Virus record (IMG/VR): IMGVR_UViG_3300028590_000013
Location: 1 to 64,000 of that record
Direction: 5' to 3' (one strand)
DNA from: a virus
DNA length: 64,000 nt
Position numbers and translations under genes: made by a program
Notes under the pieces: model-generated
The model's input: only the letters and a program-made list of their open reading frames with translations
The model's database searches: none
What the model was told of the DNA's origin: nothing
Shown: in pieces, positions 9,695 to 14,723 of the stretch
Numbering within the stretch: the stretch's first letter is position 1
How the letters are laid out: each line of letters starts with the position of its first letter

Positions 9695-10555
9695 ATGAGC
9701 ACCAAAATCCTCGTCGTCCTCAGTGGCGGCCAAGACTCGACCACCTGCCTTGCCATCGCCATGCAGATGAAGGCCACCGGGCAGGTCGACGAAGTCCATG
9801 CCCTCACCTTCGACTACGGCCAGCGCCACCGCCGCGAAATCGACGCCGCCTACCAGATCGGACGGCTTGCCGGCGTCGACAGCCATGAGTTCCTCGAAGT
9901 CGGCGCCATCCTCAAAGGCACGAGCCCGCTCACGGATAGCAGCCAAGAACTCGAGCAATACGCGGACCACGACAGCATGGCCGCCATCATCGGCGACCGC
10001 GTGGAGAAGACCTTCGTGCCGATGCGCAACGCCCTCTTTCTAACCCTCGCCGCGAATCGCGCCGTGGTGATGGGGGCCAAGGCGATCATGACCGGCGTGT
10101 GCGAGGCCGACAACGCCAACTACCCGGACTGCCGCTATGACTTCATTAGCGCCCAGCAGGCGGCCATCAACGAGGCCTTGGGCTTCAGCGGCGGTGACGA
10201 TGGCTACATCGACATCATCACGCCGCTCATGTTCCTGAGCAAGGCGCAAAGCATCAAGCATCTGTTGAACATCGGTGGTGCCGAGCAATTCGCCTGGCTT
10301 GCCTTCAGCCACACGGCCTACGACGGCCAGTATCCGCCCCTGGGCAAGGATCACGCCACGGTGCTGCGTGCCCATGGCTTTGAAGAGGCTGGCTACCCGG
10401 ACCCCCTTATCTTGCGTGCCGTGATGGAGGGAGCCATGCCACGCCCCACCACGAAGAACTACGAGCGCGTGCCCCACGGCGTGATGCGCGCCATCGACGC
10501 TCACATCGCGACCAGCCTGAGCTGGTCGAAGGAAGGGGTGAAGAGCAATGGCTGA
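9695..10555 (+). CDS. queC: 7-cyano-7-deazaguanine (preQ0) synthase
   Basis: SGGQDSTT, FDYGQRH, TFVPMRNALFL, YPDCR, TPLMFLSKA. Confidence 0.95.
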   Translation: MSTKILVVLSGGQDSTTCLAIAMQMKATGQVDEVHALTFDYGQRHRREIDAAYQIGRLAGVDSHEFLEVGAILKGTSPLTDSSQELEQYADHDSMAAIIGDRVEKTFVPMRNALFLTLAANRAVVMGAKAIMTGVCEADNANYPDCRYDFISAQQAAINEALGFSGGDDGYIDIITPLMFLSKAQSIKHLLNIGGAEQFAWLAFSHTAYDGQYPPLGKDHATVLRAHGFEEAGYPDPLILRAVMEGAMPRPTTKNYERVPHGVMRAIDAHIATSLSWSKEGVKSNG

Positions 10556-11156
10556 AAGCAAGGGCCCCTACAAGCGTTTCCAGCCCATGGTGGGTGGTGC
10601 CATCGACAGCGCCGCCTACGCCACGGAAGGCCTCTTGCGGGCCATTGGCGAGGATCCCACGCGCCCAGGCTTGCGTGAGACGCCGATGCGCGTTGCCAAA
10701 GCCTGGGCCGAGTGGACGAGCGGCTACAGCCAGGATCCCGGTGAGATCCTCAAGACGTTCGAGGATGGCGCTGAGGGCGTGGATGAGATGGTGGTGGTCA
10801 AGGACATCGAGATCTACAGCCACTGCGAGCATCACATGGCGCCCTTCTTCGGCGTGGCGCACATCGCCTACATCCCCAACGGCAAAATCGTGGGCCTCTC
10901 GAAGCTCGCTCGCCTTGCCGACATCTTCGCCCATCGCCTGCAGGTGCAAGAGCGCCTAACTAACGACATTGCCAATGCGCTGGTGGAGCACCTGAACCCC
11001 GTGGGCGTGGGCGTCGTCGTTGAAGCCCGCCACTTTTGCATGTGCTCGCGCGGCATCAAGAAGCAAGGCTCCTCCACGATCACCTCCGCGCTCCGCGGTG
11101 CCATCAAGGACAAGGCCGAGGCCCGCGCCGAGTTCATGGCCTTTGTGAAGGGCTGA
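10548..11156 (+). CDS. folE: GTP cyclohydrolase I
   Basis: GLRETPMRV, SHCEHHMAPF, GLSKLAR, RLQVQERLT, HFCMCSRG. Confidence 0.97.
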   Translation: MAESKGPYKRFQPMVGGAIDSAAYATEGLLRAIGEDPTRPGLRETPMRVAKAWAEWTSGYSQDPGEILKTFEDGAEGVDEMVVVKDIEIYSHCEHHMAPFFGVAHIAYIPNGKIVGLSKLARLADIFAHRLQVQERLTNDIANALVEHLNPVGVGVVVEARHFCMCSRGIKKQGSSTITSALRGAIKDKAEARAEFMAFVKG

Positions 11157-11157
11157 A

Positions 11158-11283
11158 ATGAACACGTGGATGGCCGGGGGAGATAACAGCACTTGGGCCT
11201 TCAAGGCTCGCCTGGAGGGCGACCATCCGCGCACGCTTCTCTCTTTCCATTACCTCTCTCTCTCTCTCTGGGCACGAGCATGA
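11158..11283 (+). CDS. 41-aa N-terminal module of the DpdA-like protein (not in the ORF track)
   Basis: MNTWMAGGDNSTWAFKARLEGDHPRTLLSFHYLSLSLWARA; starts 1 nt after the folE stop; ATGA overlap with the next gene. Confidence 0.7.
   Translation: MNTWMAGGDNSTWAFKARLEGDHPRTLLSFHYLSLSLWARA
11254..11269 (+). repeat. (CT)8 simple sequence repeat
   Basis: CTCTCTCTCTCTCTCT at the junction between the module and the DpdA-like ORF. Confidence 0.95.
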
Positions 11284-12080
11284 TTGATCCCTCCGAGTTT
11301 TCTTTCTTCCTCGACTCCGGGGCCTACTCGGCATGGAGTCGAGGCACGGCCATTGACATCGACGAGTACATCGCATTCATCAAGGCCAACATCGAGCACA
11401 TCGAGGTCTACGCCTGCCTTGACGTGATCCCTGGATCACCAGGGAAAGCGGCCACGGAGCGCGAGCGCCAACAAGCCGCAGAGGAGACGTGGAAGAACTA
11501 CCTCTACATGAAGGCTGAGGGCCTCGATCCCCTTCCCGTCTATCACTACGGAGAGGACTACGCCTTCTTCCAGCGCATGCTGGACTACGGCTGCGACTAT
11601 GTCGGCATTGGAGGCCTCGTGGGCGTTCCTGGAGCGATGCGCAAGTATTGGCTGGATCGCCTCTTCAAGCGCATCACCGATGCCGACGGAAAGCCGCAGA
11701 TCAAGACGCACGGCTTTGGCATGACGTCTGTCTCTCTGATCTTTCGCTATCCCTGGTATAGCGTAGACAGCACGAGCTGGATCCAGGCCACGGCCAATGG
11801 TGGCATCCTCTTGCCTGCAATGCGTGGCGGTGAGTTCGTCTTCAACGAAACTCCGATGACCGTGGCTGTGTCCAATCAGAAGGGCACCACTCAGCTGAGC
11901 CCAGCCATGCGCAGCATCGTTGATCGATGGCTGGCGGTGTGCGGCAAGACCTATGCGGAGGTCAGCGAGCACTACTACCACCGCGCCGTGTGCAATGTGA
12001 CCTTCTTCAAGATGGTCAGCGAAACCAAAGCCGCCTCGGGATTCAAGCCCGATGGCATCCGTAAGCAAAGCCTCTGGTAA
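11280..12080 (+). CDS. dpdA: TGT-fold DNA transglycosylase (DpdA-like), lacking its N-terminal part
   Basis: FLDSGAYS, LDVI, PVYHYGE, VGIGG, HGFG, SVDSTSW motifs; directly follows queC-folE. Confidence 0.75.
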   Translation: MIDPSEFSFFLDSGAYSAWSRGTAIDIDEYIAFIKANIEHIEVYACLDVIPGSPGKAATERERQQAAEETWKNYLYMKAEGLDPLPVYHYGEDYAFFQRMLDYGCDYVGIGGLVGVPGAMRKYWLDRLFKRITDADGKPQIKTHGFGMTSVSLIFRYPWYSVDSTSWIQATANGGILLPAMRGGEFVFNETPMTVAVSNQKGTTQLSPAMRSIVDRWLAVCGKTYAEVSEHYYHRAVCNVTFFKMVSETKAASGFKPDGIRKQSLW

Positions 12081-12090
12081 GGAGACCACC

Positions 12091-12642
12091 ATGGCAAAAG
12101 GAAACGTCAGCCCCCTTGCGAAGCGCTGTAAGGCCGACTATGAAAAGCTGGGCCGCCTCCACGCCCGCACAGGCGCCGCAAAAGTCCCCTTCCCCCGTGA
12201 TGCCAGTTCCTGGCAGGCAAAAGCCTATTGGGCCGCATACGACGCTGATAAGGCTGAAGAAGAGAAGACACGCGAAGCCTTCGGAACCGGTGAAGAAGAT
12301 ACGGCCCAAGCTGAGGAGTTCTTCGGCGTCATGGACAAACAAATAGGCCGCATTGCCGAGGCTGCGGGACTGAGCAAAGAAGAGCTGGTTGGGCAGCAGA
12401 AGCCTGCCAAGATCAGCGCGGTCGTGAAAGTGACCACGAACCTCCAGCCCAGCGGTGTTTTCGATTTGGGTCTTCTCTTCGGGATGGATCTGAGCGAACT
12501 GCCTCCAGGTGCACGCGAGCACGTGCGCGTCCTGCGAGTGGCCGTGCTTAAGGAGACCAAGCCCCAACGCAAACAGCGGCTCAAGGCGGCCATAACCCGT
12601 ATAGCCCTGCGCCACACCCCAACCGTCAAGGCGGCAAGCTGA
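12091..12642 (+). CDS. hypothetical protein
   Basis: AAGGAG RBS; coupled to the next ORF. Confidence 0.6.
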   Translation: MAKGNVSPLAKRCKADYEKLGRLHARTGAAKVPFPRDASSWQAKAYWAAYDADKAEEEKTREAFGTGEEDTAQAEEFFGVMDKQIGRIAEAAGLSKEELVGQQKPAKISAVVKVTTNLQPSGVFDLGLLFGMDLSELPPGAREHVRVLRVAVLKETKPQRKQRLKAAITRIALRHTPTVKAAS

Positions 12643-12857
12643 TGCGCGTCTACCTTGCATCAGGCAACGCGAACTATGCCAGCGAAAATGATGGCTATGA
12701 GAAAGCGTTGCGGATGGCAGAGCACAAACACACCCTCTATAGTTTTATCTGCTTAACAGGCCTCCAGCGCCTCCCCATATATGAAAGTCTTTCTGGTAGT
12801 CGGAGCAGCGAACTCGTGGCACTCAAGCGGGTGGGGAGCCGCAGTAAGAGCGGCTGA
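12642..12857 (+). CDS. Free-standing DpdA N-terminal-like module M1
   Basis: MRVYLASG...HTLYSF pattern. Confidence 0.55.
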   Translation: MRVYLASGNANYASENDGYEKALRMAEHKHTLYSFICLTGLQRLPIYESLSGSRSSELVALKRVGSRSKSG

Positions 12858-13062
12858 AGTCGACCGCGTGCTCGTGAGCTTCGTGGAGTACGTCAAGAGC
12901 CAACGGCAAGCCATGGCTATTGAAGTCCCCTCAGGAGCCTATGCCCCAATCATCAACCGTGACGCTCGCGCCGTTGAAGAGTTCGCAGGCCTCTTGAACC
13001 TGGGGCGCAATCTTCGGGAGACCTTGGAGGGTGACGATGAAGATCTTCCTCGCCGGGCTTGA
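12781..13062 (+). CDS. Free-standing DpdA N-terminal-like module M2
   Basis: MKVFLVVG...RVLVSFVEY pattern. Confidence 0.55.
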   Translation: MKVFLVVGAANSWHSSGWGAAVRAAEVDRVLVSFVEYVKSQRQAMAIEVPSGAYAPIINRDARAVEEFAGLLNLGRNLRETLEGDDEDLPRRA

Positions 13063-13216
13063 TGCCAGCCACCTTGCAAGCAGGACCAACGGCTACACCC
13101 AGAGCGCCCACGTCTTCCCCCACGTTCTCGTTTCATTCTTTTTCTACGTCGATCCACAGAGTCATGCGCGGCAGAGCCCGCAGAACATCATCCCACCCGT
13201 GAAGGAAACCAAGTGA
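13037..13216 (+). CDS. Free-standing DpdA N-terminal-like module M3
   Basis: MKIFLAG...HVLVSFFFY pattern; GGAGG RBS. Confidence 0.6.
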   Translation: MKIFLAGLDASHLASRTNGYTQSAHVFPHVLVSFFFYVDPQSHARQSPQNIIPPVKETK

Positions 13217-13617
13217 ACAAGAAGCTCTATCTCTGCGGCCCCATTCATGGGCTTAGCGACGCCGAGTGCAACAACTGGCGCAAGTATGTCACCGCCAAGT
13301 GGAGCGGCGGCGTGATCGATCCCATGCGCCGTGATGCCCGCGGTCGCATGCACGAGCCGGGCGTTGCCAAAGAAGTCGTGGAGGCCGACAAGGCGGACAT
13401 TCTCGAAGCCTCGGCGGTCATCGTTTACTACGCCTTCCCCAGCGTGGGAACGAGCATGGAGATCCTCTTCGCCTGGGAGCAGCACAAGCCCATCATCGTC
13501 GTCAATGCCTCCATGCAGTACGACAAGGATCTCAGCCTGTGGCTGCAGTACCACGCCACGGTGATCGTCACCGGCCTGGACCCAGCTCTCCGCTATCTCG
13601 AAGCCGCTTACAACTGA
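13213..13617 (+). CDS. Nucleoside 2-deoxyribosyltransferase / RCL-like N-glycosidase
   Basis: LYLCGPI, VIDP, D..DI..A, SVGTSMEI..A...KPI. Confidence 0.8.
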   Translation: MNKKLYLCGPIHGLSDAECNNWRKYVTAKWSGGVIDPMRRDARGRMHEPGVAKEVVEADKADILEASAVIVYYAFPSVGTSMEILFAWEQHKPIIVVNASMQYDKDLSLWLQYHATVIVTGLDPALRYLEAAYN

Positions 13618-13628
13618 AAGGAAAAGCC

Positions 13629-14723
13629 ATGCCCACCATCAAACGCGAACTCATCCTGAAGACAGCCAACCTCGTGCGCCCAGCCCTGGCCACGGCGGCC
13701 TACATCCCAGCGCTGACGCACATCAGCTTCGACGGCGAATACGCGACGGCCTACAACGACATCTCGGCCATCTCGGTGCGCTGCAAAGCTGACGTGGGGC
13801 GCTGCGTTCCCGGTGACCTGCTCATCCGAGGCCTTGGCAGTTTCGGCGGCGACGAGATCGCTCTCCAGACCGGACCCAACGAAGAACTGGTGATGTCGAG
13901 CGGGCGCGGCGCCAAAGTCAAGCTCCCCACCCTCAAGCTCAAGGACTTCCCCTACCAGCCGCCTGAGGTCAACGCAAAGAAGGATGCCCCCATCACGATT
14001 GATGCAAGCATCCTCAAGGGCATTGAGCGATGCCTCATGAGCGTTAACAACGACCCCACGCACCCCGCGCAGATGGGCGTCACCCTGGACAGCGACGACA
14101 ACGGCGAAGCCCTCCTCTTCAGCACGGACAACTTCACGATCAGCCGCTATCAGACCAGCAGCGAGATCCGCCTCCCCGGCGACACGCCGGTGATCCTGCC
14201 CCGCTTCTTCTGCGAGCAGCTCATCAGCCTCTCGCGTGCCTTCCCCGCCGAGAAGATCCAGCTCTTCCTGCTGGGCGGTGCCCTCTTCGCCACCTTCGGC
14301 GAAGCCGCTGAACTCTTCAGCAAGACCCCCGTGGATCTGGAGCCCCTCGACTTCCCCACGATGATGGGCAAGCACGTGAAGCTCAAGGGCCTCAAGGATC
14401 AGCTCTTCCCCATCCCCGACTCCTGGGAGTCCGCCTTTGGCCGCGCCATGCTGGTGCTCGGCAGCGAAGACGACAAGGCCGTGAAGGTCACGCTCGGCGT
14501 CGACACGATCCAGCTCCTCTCGACTTCTCCGATGGGTGAGGCCGACGACGAGATGAAGTACGAAAGCGGCGACGGTGACCCTGACAAGCCCTTTCACGTC
14601 GACCCGGCCCTCATCATCCGCGCTTCCAAGAGCTGCGCGCTGCTGGGTTTCACGGATCGTGTCGTCATAATGGCCGACAAGGATCTCGCCTTCACTCACA
14701 TCGTTGCGCACTGCTCGAAGTAA
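13629..14723 (+). CDS. DNA polymerase III beta-clamp-like sliding clamp
   Basis: ~365 aa; IPALTHISF, GVTL..STDNFTIS, VILPR, DFP pattern of DnaN. Confidence 0.75.
   Translation: MPTIKRELILKTANLVRPALATAAYIPALTHISFDGEYATAYNDISAISVRCKADVGRCVPGDLLIRGLGSFGGDEIALQTGPNEELVMSSGRGAKVKLPTLKLKDFPYQPPEVNAKKDAPITIDASILKGIERCLMSVNNDPTHPAQMGVTLDSDDNGEALLFSTDNFTISRYQTSSEIRLPGDTPVILPRFFCEQLISLSRAFPAEKIQLFLLGGALFATFGEAAELFSKTPVDLEPLDFPTMMGKHVKLKGLKDQLFPIPDSWESAFGRAMLVLGSEDDKAVKVTLGVDTIQLLSTSPMGEADDEMKYESGDGDPDKPFHVDPALIIRASKSCALLGFTDRVVIMADKDLAFTHIVAHCSK

What the first reader, a model, noticed from the sequence alone, without database searches (positions are those of the whole stretch)
12642..13216. Array of three free-standing paralogs of the DpdA N-terminal module: possible swappable barrel pieces
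Seen: three small overlapping ORFs share the pattern of the 11158 module, a short hydrophobic strand followed by G, a variable 17-22 aa spacer, then [RH]-[TV]-L-x-S-F: MRVYLASG..HTLYSF, MKVFLVVG..RVLVSFVEY, MKIFLAG..HVLVSFFFY versus MNTWMAGG..RTLLSFHY. Strands are conserved and spacers are divergent; each ORF is in a different frame. Inference: these are alternative beta1-alpha1-beta2 units that could complement the N-truncated barrel in trans, or be recombined in. In tRNA TGTs this part of the barrel is near the nucleotides flanking the target G, so four modules could give four sequence contexts for modification. With the CT switch, this would be an undescribed modular DNA-modification system.
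Basis: partly seen in the sequence, partly recalled or inferred. Interest (0 to 1): 0.88.

Follow-up and report, generated by a model that had tools for sequence, protein, structure and literature searches.

The report
Split DpdA enzyme with spare barrel pieces
Three small overlapping phage genes encode stand-alone copies of the first two strands of the DpdA DNA-modifying enzyme's barrel, and this enzyme's own gene lacks exactly those strands, so the enzyme appears to be assembled from separate pieces.

Summary
ORF1 (12642-12857), ORF2 (12781-13062) and ORF3 (13037-13216) share a strand-helix-strand pattern with the 41-aa ORF at 11158. Each lies +1 to the one before.

They are homologues of the DpdA N-terminal beta1-alpha1-beta2 segment: profile-profile probability is 96% against N-fused modules and 92% against integral DpdA N-termini, but 2% against the neighbouring deoxyribosyltransferase N-terminus. 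All three evolve under purifying selection in their own frames.

The DpdA gene at 11280-12080 encodes only six barrel strands, which I map to beta3-beta8 of TGT. In all 15 related loci from the window's clade, 1-3 such small ORFs follow dpdA. Among 49 distant loci, 14 of 17 with a core-only dpdA have a free-standing module downstream and 2 have it fused to the C-terminus. Only 1 of 32 with an integral N-terminus has one.

A complex model places ORF2 strand 1 against core beta8 and strand 2 against core beta3 (score 0.88, best control 0.01).

Best reading: a naturally split, permuted DpdA whose small subunit has multiplied to four copies per single core. Whether the copies change target specificity is untested. 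Swapping by DNA recombination finds no support. I found no description of this in print.

The parts
9695..10555 (+). QueC (7-cyano-7-deazaguanine synthase)
   Evidence: PF06508, E 8e-48
10548..11156 (+). GTP cyclohydrolase I (FolE)
   Evidence: PF01227, E 1e-73
11158..11283 (+). module0: a 41-aa free-standing beta1-alpha1-beta2 module ORF. Its TGA stop (11281-11283) overlaps the ATG of the DpdA core (ATGA).
   Evidence: HMM of N-fused modules, E 1e-10. HMM of integral DpdA N-termini, E 3e-6. Sequence read.
11254..11269 (+). (CT)8 tract encoding LSLSL at the end of module0. One unit fewer would fuse module0 in frame to the core.
   Evidence: Sequence. Homologues with an in-frame module carry SLSLS at this position. 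Switching was not shown.
11280..12080 (+). DpdA core (266 aa): a transglycosylase barrel with six strands, which I map to beta3-beta8, starting just before the FFLDSGAYS motif.
   Evidence: phrog_887, E 1e-50, matching from profile position 57. AF2 of homologue P0038 shows six confident barrel strands, and the top Foldseek hit is TGT 2pot at E 1.9e-4. 2504 homologues found.
12091..12642 (+). Conserved hypothetical protein between dpdA and the module array (the longest ORF starts at 12052).
   Evidence: No Pfam or PHROG hit. ORFs with a similar N-terminal sequence are seen by eye at the same place in ZHS, L003 and L004.
12642..12857 (+). ORF1 (71 aa). The module is 12642-12755. The tail overlaps the ORF2 start and is unconstrained.
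   Evidence: Leave-out HMM, E 6e-7. Module pN/pS 0.44 against 1.2-1.5 in the other frames; tail dN/dS 0.7-1.3. Orthologues in L016, L018 and L031.
12781..13062 (+). ORF2 (93 aa): the type found in every locus of the clade, and the predicted small subunit of DpdA.
   Evidence: Leave-out HMM, E 2e-16. pN/pS 0.10-0.65. Complex model 0.88 against a best control of 0.01. 66 cluster representatives, nearly all 54-114 aa.
13037..13216 (+). ORF3 (59 aa), with GGAGG 6 nt upstream of its ATG. Its stop overlaps the GTG of the next gene.
   Evidence: Leave-out HMM, E 1.6e-3. pN/pS 0.14-0.58. Orthologues in ZHS, L016, L018 and L032. Four database proteins.
13213..13617 (+). Nucleoside 2-deoxyribosyltransferase-like protein (not the source of the modules).
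   Evidence: PF05014, E 9e-8. hhalign of its N-terminus against the small-ORF profile gives probability 2%.
13629..14723 (+). Sliding clamp (DNA polymerase processivity factor). The gene order dpdA - module(s) - clamp recurs in distant phages.
   Evidence: phrog_947, E 9e-33. Synteny.

Best explanation
ORF1, ORF2 and ORF3 are translated small proteins. Each is a stand-alone copy of the beta1-alpha1-beta2 segment that begins the TIM barrel of canonical DpdA, the phage 7-deazaguanine DNA transglycosylase.

In this phage lineage the dpdA gene encodes only the rest of the barrel (beta3-beta8, carrying the catalytic DSG and VDS motifs). The missing two strands are supplied in trans. Strand 1 of the small protein pairs with beta8 of the core, and strand 2 pairs with beta3, which closes the barrel. 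The system is therefore a naturally split, circularly permuted enzyme whose small subunit has multiplied: four modules (11158, 12642, 12781, 13037) for one core in the 72-kb genome. ORF2 belongs to the type present in every locus of the clade and is the most likely obligate partner.

Shown: homology, purifying selection, linkage to core-only dpdA, and the existence of fused permuted forms.
Modelled: docking of ORF2.
Inferred: that the complex forms in infected cells and is the active enzyme.
Open: what ORF1, ORF3 and module0 add, whether redundancy, timing, or altered DNA or substrate contacts.
For: Homology:
- hhalign of the small-ORF profile (32 sequences) against N-fused modules (49 sequences) gives probability 96.4% and score 36.7 over the full 31 columns.
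- Against the integral N-termini of 17 distant DpdAs it gives 91.5% and score 29.7.
- Controls: the Ndt N-terminus gives 2% and the reversed profile 0.2%. Of 200 column shuffles, 197 scored 13.0 or less.

The core lacks two strands:
- Distant DpdAs read MKIFLAGG..helix..ILYSYYY..helix..FFLDSGAF in one chain, whereas the window's core starts 8 residues before FFLDSG.
- AF2 of homologue P0038 shows six confident barrel strands in the core.

Translation:
- In all 13 pairwise comparisons the annotated frame has the lowest pN/pS (0.10-0.65, against 0.79-7.4 off-frame). Fisher p<0.05 in 12 of 13.
- GC by codon position fits the annotated frames.

Linkage:
- 15 of 15 loci of the window's clade (14 related loci plus the window) have 1-3 free-standing modules downstream of dpdA on the same strand.
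- Among 49 distant loci, 17 have fewer than 45 open codons before DSG. Of these, 14 have a free downstream module, 2 have the module fused to the C-terminus, and 1 has neither.
- Of the 32 distant loci with 45 or more open codons, 1 has free hits. Fisher p = 1.4e-8.

Natural fusion:
- 67 of the 120 best relatives of the L041 DpdA are 333 aa or longer. The roughly 60 whose C-termini I printed mostly carry a C-terminal KxIFTLTTSPxHSxIL..RLLTYYYF module.
- AF2 of one of them (P0121) gives mean pLDDT 91.6 and pTM 0.89. Its module strands 299-303 and 321-325 have pLDDT 90-98, making eight strands in all.

Docking:
- Core plus ORF2 scored 0.88 (runs 0.90, 0.76, 0.88) against a best control of 0.01. 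That mark was reached by 58 of 80 solved complexes and 2 of 110 mismatched pairs.
- The runs share at least 44% of their contacts. Partner pLDDT is at least 47.
- The lowest-error pairs are core 8-12 with ORF2 29-32, and core 160-163 with ORF2 2-4.

Family and genome:
- 66 representatives at E<=1e-3 in 1.84 billion proteins. Nearly all are 54-114 aa and match from residue 1.
- The genome holds exactly four modules and one DSG core.
Against: - AF2 of an N-fused homologue places its module with low confidence (pLDDT 53-65 for residues 1-40).
- The partner's own fold in the complex is uncertain (pLDDT 48-57). In addition, the halves of a split TIM barrel may score high through likeness to solved TGT and TIM-barrel structures. 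The pass therefore shows structural compatibility, not binding.
- Only ORF2 was modelled. ORF1, ORF3 and module0 were not.
- Sequence-to-profile links from canonical DpdA N-termini to ORF1-3 are weak: no hit at E<=10 with the N-fused HMM, and E 0.33-0.5 with the integral HMM.
- ORF2 has no Shine-Dalgarno motif and starts inside ORF1.
- ORF1-type (4 loci) and ORF3-type (window plus 4 distinct loci, and 4 database proteins) are narrow, perhaps young, duplicates.
- One core-only-like locus (L076) has no detectable module.
- Many loci in the counts are near-duplicates, so the Fisher p overstates independence.
Confidence: 0.7

Rival explanations
1. Alternative specificity subunits. The four modules compete for the same site on one core. 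Because the beta1/alpha1 and beta2/alpha2 loops sit on the DNA-facing side, each complex would modify G in a different sequence context or accept a different 7-deazaguanine base.
For: - Four modules for one core.
- The strands are conserved, while the loops and tails differ by type and are conserved within each type.
- All types are under purifying selection.
- Some ORF2-type tails carry a Cys-rich, zinc-site-like motif.
Against: - Nothing here tests specificity.
- Many relatives manage with a single module (L020, L022, L025, L028).
- Only ORF2 was docked.
- ORF1's conserved part is only 38 aa.
Confidence: 0.2
2. One working partner plus leftovers. Only the ORF2-type subunit functions. ORF1, ORF3 and module0 are by-products of the repeated 5'-end duplications that produced the permutation, and are decaying or merely tolerated.
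For: - The ORF2 type is present in every clade locus, while the others are patchy.
- Locus L033 has an array of four in which two copies look degenerate.
- Tandem partial duplications of strand 1 occur inside integral DpdAs (L073, L078).
- The ZHS-type module0 has lost the otherwise near-invariant Ser (LAPF).
- The ORF1 tail is unconstrained.
Against: - The ORF1 and ORF3 modules show pN/pS of 0.14-0.58 in their own frame, with start codons kept, across phages whose DpdA cores are only 79-91% identical.
- ORF3 has a strong ribosome-binding site.
Confidence: 0.25
3. DNA-level cassette swapping or phase variation. The modules would be silent cassettes recombined into the dpdA 5' end, with the (CT)8 tract as an on/off switch.
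For: - Dinucleotide repeats lie at or near the module0/core junction in three genomes: the window's (CT)8, which is out of frame; L022's (GA)5, also out of frame; and ZHS/L017's (AG)6, which is in frame.
- One repeat unit more or fewer would fuse module0 to the core.
Against: - No DNA repeats link the modules. They share protein pattern only.
- No inverted or direct flanking repeats typical of shufflons or diversity-generating retroelements turned up in 11000-13700.
- In the out-of-frame state, module0's stop overlaps the core's start codon (ATGA), which looks like a designed two-gene arrangement.
- No read-level variation could be examined.
Confidence: 0.05
4. Small proteins serving another partner in the replication module (clamp, Ndt-like enzyme), with the resemblance to DpdA only ancestral.
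For: The modules sit immediately upstream of the clamp or Ndt genes, often overlapping their starts. The order dpdA-module-clamp makes the two linkages hard to separate.
Against: - In several loci the module starts at the dpdA stop codon (L025, L027, L028, L038, L042).
- Free modules occur almost only where dpdA lacks its own N-terminus.
- Fusions are to DpdA.
- In the complex control that kept ORF2 and replaced the core with an unrelated protein, the score was 0.00.
Confidence: 0.05

Closest known systems
Phage DpdA (7-deazaguanine DNA transglycosylase; PHROG 887; DpdA1-type of Hutinet et al. 2019, PMC6884629)
   Same: The core matches phrog_887 at 1e-50. It carries the DSG and VDS motifs and sits with QueC and FolE (QueD lies elsewhere in the genome). 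Distant members hold the same beta1-alpha1-beta2 unit as an integral N-terminus.
   Different: Here the unit is missing from the enzyme's own chain. It is encoded as separate small ORFs, mostly downstream of the core, in four copies. The passages I read of PMC6884629 and PMC10516641 (term searches) mention no split, truncated or permuted DpdA.
Bacterial DpdA (Salmonella Montevideo crystal structure, PMC10164549) and tRNA-guanine transglycosylases (PDB 2pot, 1iq8)
   Same: (beta/alpha)8 barrel with a catalytic Asp after a DSG-type strand. The top Foldseek hits of the model are TGTs (E 1.9e-4). The beta1/alpha1 and beta2/alpha2 loops lie on the substrate face (passages read).
   Different: Those enzymes are single chains of about 350-400 aa or more with a Zn site, and TGTs also carry an N-terminal lid. 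There is no sequence-level match to any PDB chain. The window's enzyme is a 266-aa six-strand core plus 41-93-aa pieces.
   Same: The barrel tolerates new termini and assembly from fragments. The window's clade even carries modules on both sides of the core, which resembles an intermediate of permutation by duplication.
   Different: Those cases are either single permuted chains or laboratory constructs. A natural enzyme whose two-strand piece is a separate gene present in several paralogues is not among the cases I recall.
Nucleoside 2-deoxyribosyltransferase (PF05014), the adjacent gene
   Same: It also begins with a hydrophobic strand followed by Gly (MNKKLYLCGP).
   Different: hhalign probability is 2% over 6 columns, and no Pfam or PHROG hit of ORF1-3 to this family was found. 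The ORFs are not fragments of it.

Membership tests
DpdA/TGT barrel, N-terminal beta1-alpha1-beta2 segment | Sequence-profile similarity to the N-terminus of bona fide DpdA proteins | tested here: met
   hhalign gives 96.4% against N-fused modules and 91.5% against integral N-termini, with low controls. Sequence-to-profile hits are weak.
DpdA/TGT barrel, N-terminal beta1-alpha1-beta2 segment | Genomic linkage to a dpdA gene that lacks this segment | tested here: met
   15 of 15 clade loci have downstream modules. Among distant loci, 14 of 17 core-only loci have one, against 1 of 32 integral loci.
DpdA/TGT barrel, N-terminal beta1-alpha1-beta2 segment | Occupies the beta1 and beta2 positions of the barrel, between beta8 and beta3 | tested here: met
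   Tested for ORF2 only, and by model only. Core 160-163 pairs with ORF2 2-4, and core 8-12 pairs with ORF2 29-32. Score 0.88 against a best control of 0.01. The natural C-fused form folds with the module at pLDDT 90-98. ORF1, ORF3 and module0 were not modelled.
DpdA/TGT barrel, N-terminal beta1-alpha1-beta2 segment | Required for transglycosylase activity | not testable with these tools
   Needs biochemistry or genetics.
DpdA (enzyme as a whole) | TGT-like fold with a catalytic DSG Asp and a second Asp, in a 7-deazaguanine synthesis gene cluster | tested here: met
   phrog_887 at 1e-50. D12 and D163 are invariant in the alignment. Foldseek hits TGTs. QueC, FolE and QueD are present.
Nucleoside 2-deoxyribosyltransferase fragments | Similarity to PF05014 or to the N-terminus of the adjacent gene | tested here: not met
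   No Pfam or PHROG hit at E<=1. hhalign probability 2%.
Recombination cassettes / phase-variable switch | DNA repeats shared between the expression site and the cassettes; length variation of the repeat tract | tested here: not met
   No shared DNA repeats. Tract variation could not be examined, because only contigs of the probable source run cover it.

The most novel reading that the evidence does not exclude
A single DpdA catalytic core is retargeted by interchangeable two-strand subunits. Module0, ORF1, ORF2 and ORF3 each complete the barrel, but each presents different beta1/alpha1 loops and post-beta2 tails to the DNA. One phage would then write 7-deazaguanine into several sequence contexts, or insert different bases, from one enzyme. 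Dinucleotide-repeat slippage at 11254-11269 would toggle whether module0 is fused to the core or free.
Probability: 0.15. Interest if true: 0.92.

Novelty: new variant of a known kind. Interest (0 to 1): 0.78.

Why it matters
DpdA is the signature enzyme of 7-deazaguanine DNA modification, which shields phage DNA from restriction. How DpdAs choose their target motifs is an open question.

This work points to three things:
- A large part of the family appears to be split or circularly permuted, with a 40-90-aa subunit that annotation pipelines leave as 'hypothetical' or miss altogether. This may bear on failures to reconstitute activity when only the annotated dpdA gene is expressed; I did not test that.
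- A natural TIM-barrel enzyme assembled from a six-strand core and a two-strand peptide gives protein-evolution studies a living example of fragment complementation and permutation by duplication.
- The multiplication of the small subunit offers a directly testable handle on the specificity of DNA modification.

Tried and rejected
Fragments of the adjacent Ndt-like gene: rejected (hhalign 2%; no PF05014 hit).

One frameshifted longer gene across 12642-13216: rejected. Each unit has its own conserved start and is an independent ORF in ZHS, L016 and L018. L031 does fuse ORF1 and ORF2 in frame.

Cassette recombination: no DNA repeats.

Direct detection of ORF1-3 with the N-fused module HMM: failed.

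tblastn of ORF2 and ORF3 against 50,697 phage records: only Edwardsiella phage ZHS matched.

PDB sequence search with the core: only chance antibody hits.

AF2 of an N-fused homologue: the module came out at low confidence, so it is uninformative about docking in cis.

Column-shuffle null for hhalign: 3 of 200 shuffles returned scores of about 130 over 6-28 columns. I take these to be numerical artefacts, because they exceed what so few columns can give. I did not resolve them.

Expression: no RNA holder was listed for the stretch.

(CT)8 variation: of the four runs laid, only the contig of X1 (the probable source) covers the tract, and it shows the same sequence. X2 laid nothing, and X3 and X4 cover small parts elsewhere. 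There is therefore no evidence either way.

A regex classification of the loci misassigned several integral N-termini, so I classified by the length of the open frame before DSG instead. A second Fisher test used guessed de-duplicated group numbers and is not cited.

Supplementary files of the DpdA papers were not seen. They hold the alignments and gene lists and could mention short or split DpdAs.

Literature searches for a prior description: 'DpdA'+'TIM barrel'+'split' found 0 papers. 'DpdA'+'circular permutation' found 1 unrelated paper. Term searches inside PMC10516641 and PMC6884629 found nothing relevant.
Full report
**What is there.** The window is the first 64 kb of a complete 72,232-base phage record. 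Around the finding it is 80% identical in DNA to Edwardsiella phage vB_EpM_ZHS. The neighbourhood is a replication and DNA-modification module. It holds a 5'-3' exonuclease, a DnaB-like helicase and an SNF2 helicase. Then come:
- QueC (9695-10555) and FolE (10548-11156)
- a 41-aa ORF (11158-11283)
- a DpdA-like gene (11280-12080; phrog_887 at 1e-50, no Pfam hit)
- a conserved hypothetical gene (12091-12642)
- the three small ORFs
- a nucleoside 2-deoxyribosyltransferase-like gene (13213-13617)
- a sliding clamp and a DNA polymerase

QueD lies outside the window.

Each is shifted +1 from the previous one and overlaps it. All three begin M-[KR]-[VI]-[FY]-L, have a 20-21-aa spacer, and then [RH]-x-L-[VY]-S-F. 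The 11158 ORF has the same pattern with a 16-aa spacer.

**They are real genes.**
- ZHS keeps ORF2 (77% identical) and ORF3 (81% identical) as ORFs. Metagenomic relatives L016 and L018 keep all three in the same overlapping layout.
- In all 13 pairwise comparisons of the 37-codon modules, the annotated frame has the lowest pN/pS (0.10-0.65). The two other frames give 0.79-7.4. Fisher p is below 0.05 in 12 of 13; the exception is ORF3, window against L018, at 0.067.
- Nei-Gojobori dN/dS is 0.04-0.50 for the modules, against 0.07-0.16 for the DpdA core. The ORF1 tail, which overlaps the ORF2 start, is unconstrained at 0.7-1.3.
- GC by codon position fits the annotated frames.
- ORF3 has GGAGG 6 nt before its ATG. 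ORF2 has no such motif and starts inside ORF1.

**What they are related to.** Of the 120 best DpdA homologues, about half are 274 aa and start M-I-x-P-x-x-F-x-FFLDSGA. The others are 311-316 aa, with one extra N-terminal unit MxxW[LM][GA]G...[YL]LGSF. Three proteins carry two or three such units in tandem. Every unit begins with Met, and the core keeps its own Met.

More distant DpdAs carry the unit as an integral N-terminus, followed by a second helix and then FFLDSGAF. An example is MTTVFLAGGEIEKLSLTLFECGVKNILYSYYYL... in L083.

Profile-profile comparison links the small ORFs to both sets:
- 96.4% probability (score 36.7, all 31 columns) against the N-fused modules
- 91.5% (score 29.7) against the integral N-termini
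- 2% against the N-terminus of the Ndt-like neighbour
- 0.2% against the reversed profile
- 197 of 200 column shuffles scored 13.0 or less; three gave anomalous values near 130 that I treat as artefacts

Plain HMM searches are weaker. The N-fused HMM does not find ORF1-3. The integral-N-terminus HMM gives them E 0.33-0.5, though they are the next-best hits in the genome. A leave-out HMM, built from clade small ORFs without the window or L016-L018, finds exactly the four modules and nothing else below E=1 in the 72-kb genome.

**The core lacks two strands.** By recalled TGT motifs, FFLDSGAYS corresponds to TDSGGFQ, YACLDV to FDEC, DYVGIGGL to GYAVGGL, THGFGM to YLMGVG, and YSVDSTSW to DMFDCV. 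On that mapping the 266-aa core is beta3-beta8. The AF2 model of homologue P0038 shows six confident barrel strands in the core. Its best PDB matches are TGTs (2pot, E 1.9e-4). In that model the N-fused module itself is placed with low confidence (pLDDT 53-65).

**Comparative genomics links the small ORFs to core-only dpdA.**
- In the 14 related loci of the window's clade plus the window itself, 15 of 15 have 1-3 free-standing modules downstream of dpdA on the same strand. In several the module starts at the dpdA stop codon.
- Among 49 more distant loci, 17 have fewer than 45 open codons before the DSG motif. Of those, 14 have one free-standing module ORF between dpdA and the clamp gene. Two (L040, L041) carry the module fused to the C-terminus of DpdA. 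One (L076) has neither.
- Of the 32 distant loci with 45 or more open codons, only L037 has free-standing hits. Fisher p is 1.4e-8. Many loci are near-duplicates, so the true number of independent cases is smaller.
- All 68 hits of the general HMM at E<0.01 lie on the dpdA strand.

**The C-fused form is a large family.** 67 of the 120 best relatives of the L041 protein are 333 aa or longer. The roughly 60 whose C-termini I printed mostly end in KxIFTLTTSPxHSxIL..RLLTYYYF. AF2 folds one of them (P0121) at mean pLDDT 91.6 and pTM 0.89. The C-terminal strands 299-303 and 321-325 have pLDDT 90-98, giving eight strands in all.

**Docking.** One complex job was available. I spent it on the core (alignment of 64 sequences) with ORF2 (alignment of 15), because ORF2 is the type present in every clade locus.
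- The score was 0.88 (runs 0.90, 0.76, 0.88). The best of three controls scored 0.01. That mark was reached by 58 of 80 solved complexes and 2 of 110 mismatched pairs.
- The runs agree in at least 44% of their contacts. The partner's pLDDT is at least 47, so its own fold is uncertain.
- The lowest-error contacts are core 8-12 (FSFFLD) with ORF2 29-32 (RVLV), and core 160-163 (YSVD) with ORF2 2-4 (KVF). This is the order beta8-beta1-beta2-beta3 expected for barrel closure.
- The two halves of a split barrel resemble solved single-chain barrels. The pass may therefore reflect that likeness. It shows compatibility, not binding in a cell.

**Mechanism proposed.** DpdA in this lineage is a two-piece, effectively circularly permuted enzyme: a catalytic core plus a small subunit that supplies beta1-alpha1-beta2.

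The window carries four such subunits for one core. Module0 is a separate 41-aa ORF whose stop overlaps the core's start codon (ATGA). It ends in a (CT)8 tract, and one unit fewer would fuse it to the core. Relatives show both the fused and the unfused state, and L022 has a (GA)5 tract at the same junction.

What the extra copies do is open. In Salmonella DpdA, the beta1/alpha1 loop helps form the DNA-binding surface and the beta2/alpha2 insertion flanks the active site (PMC10164549, passages read). Those are exactly the parts that differ between ORF1, ORF2 and ORF3, so alternative specificity is plausible but untested. The rival view is that only ORF2 works and the others are tolerated duplicates. 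It draws support from degenerate arrays such as L033 and from the patchy distribution of the ORF1 and ORF3 types.

**Novelty.** In the library searched I found no paper describing a split or permuted DpdA (supplements were not seen). The small ORFs match no Pfam or PHROG family. The ORF2-type family has 66 representatives among 1.84 billion proteins, nearly all of them unannotated 54-114-aa proteins. I file this as a new variant of a known kind: DpdA, but split, permuted and with a multiplied small subunit.

Noticed in passing
window 11254-11283; L022:4470-4510; L017:4440-4455: Dinucleotide repeats lie at or near the module0/core junction in three genomes: (CT)8 in the window and (GA)5 in L022, both out of frame with the core, and (AG)6 inside an in-frame module0 in the ZHS-like L017. 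In the window the module0 stop overlaps the core start (ATGA). A change of one repeat unit would fuse the two genes.
   Followed up: partly
L040:4471-5610, L041:4480-5598; proteins P0121-P0240: A large DpdA subfamily (67 of the 120 hits are 333 aa or longer) appears to carry the beta1-alpha1-beta2 module fused to the C-terminus, which would be a natural circular permutation of the barrel. AF2 of P0121 gives pLDDT 91.6 with a confident module.
   Followed up: partly
L033:1255-1970: An array of four small module ORFs lies between a core-only dpdA and the clamp gene. Two look degenerate: one keeps only strand 1 and the other only strand 2.
   Followed up: no
L031:952-1455; L025:5322-5660; L028:5322-5591: In L031, ORF1-type and ORF2-type modules are fused in frame (167 aa). 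The ORF2-type proteins of L025, L028 and L031 have a Cys-rich tail (HPCx3CQYA...CPRx2CHY) that looks like a zinc site.
   Followed up: no
L073:4132-4504; L078:2906-3203: Tandem partial duplications of strand 1, each with its own Met (MNFYAAG twice; M[ND][IL]FL[AS][GA] three times), sit inside the N-termini of integral DpdAs. This suggests recurrent 5'-end duplication in this gene family.
   Followed up: no
window 12091-12642: A 183-aa protein between dpdA and the modules has counterparts with a similar N-terminus in related phages, with the shared motif ...PFPRD..SWQAKAYWAAYD (by eye). It has no Pfam or PHROG match, and its function is unknown.
   Followed up: no
L037:2638-2805: A 55-aa ORF reads like a truncated second DpdA N-terminus that runs through strand 3 (…HFFLDSGAFFCLE) and then stops. 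It lies upstream of a full dpdA.
   Followed up: no
G000:C1:66942-67253 (-), outside the window: QueD (PF01242, E 1.8e-14) lies about 55 kb from the QueC-FolE-DpdA cluster on the opposite strand. QueE was not looked for.
   Followed up: partly
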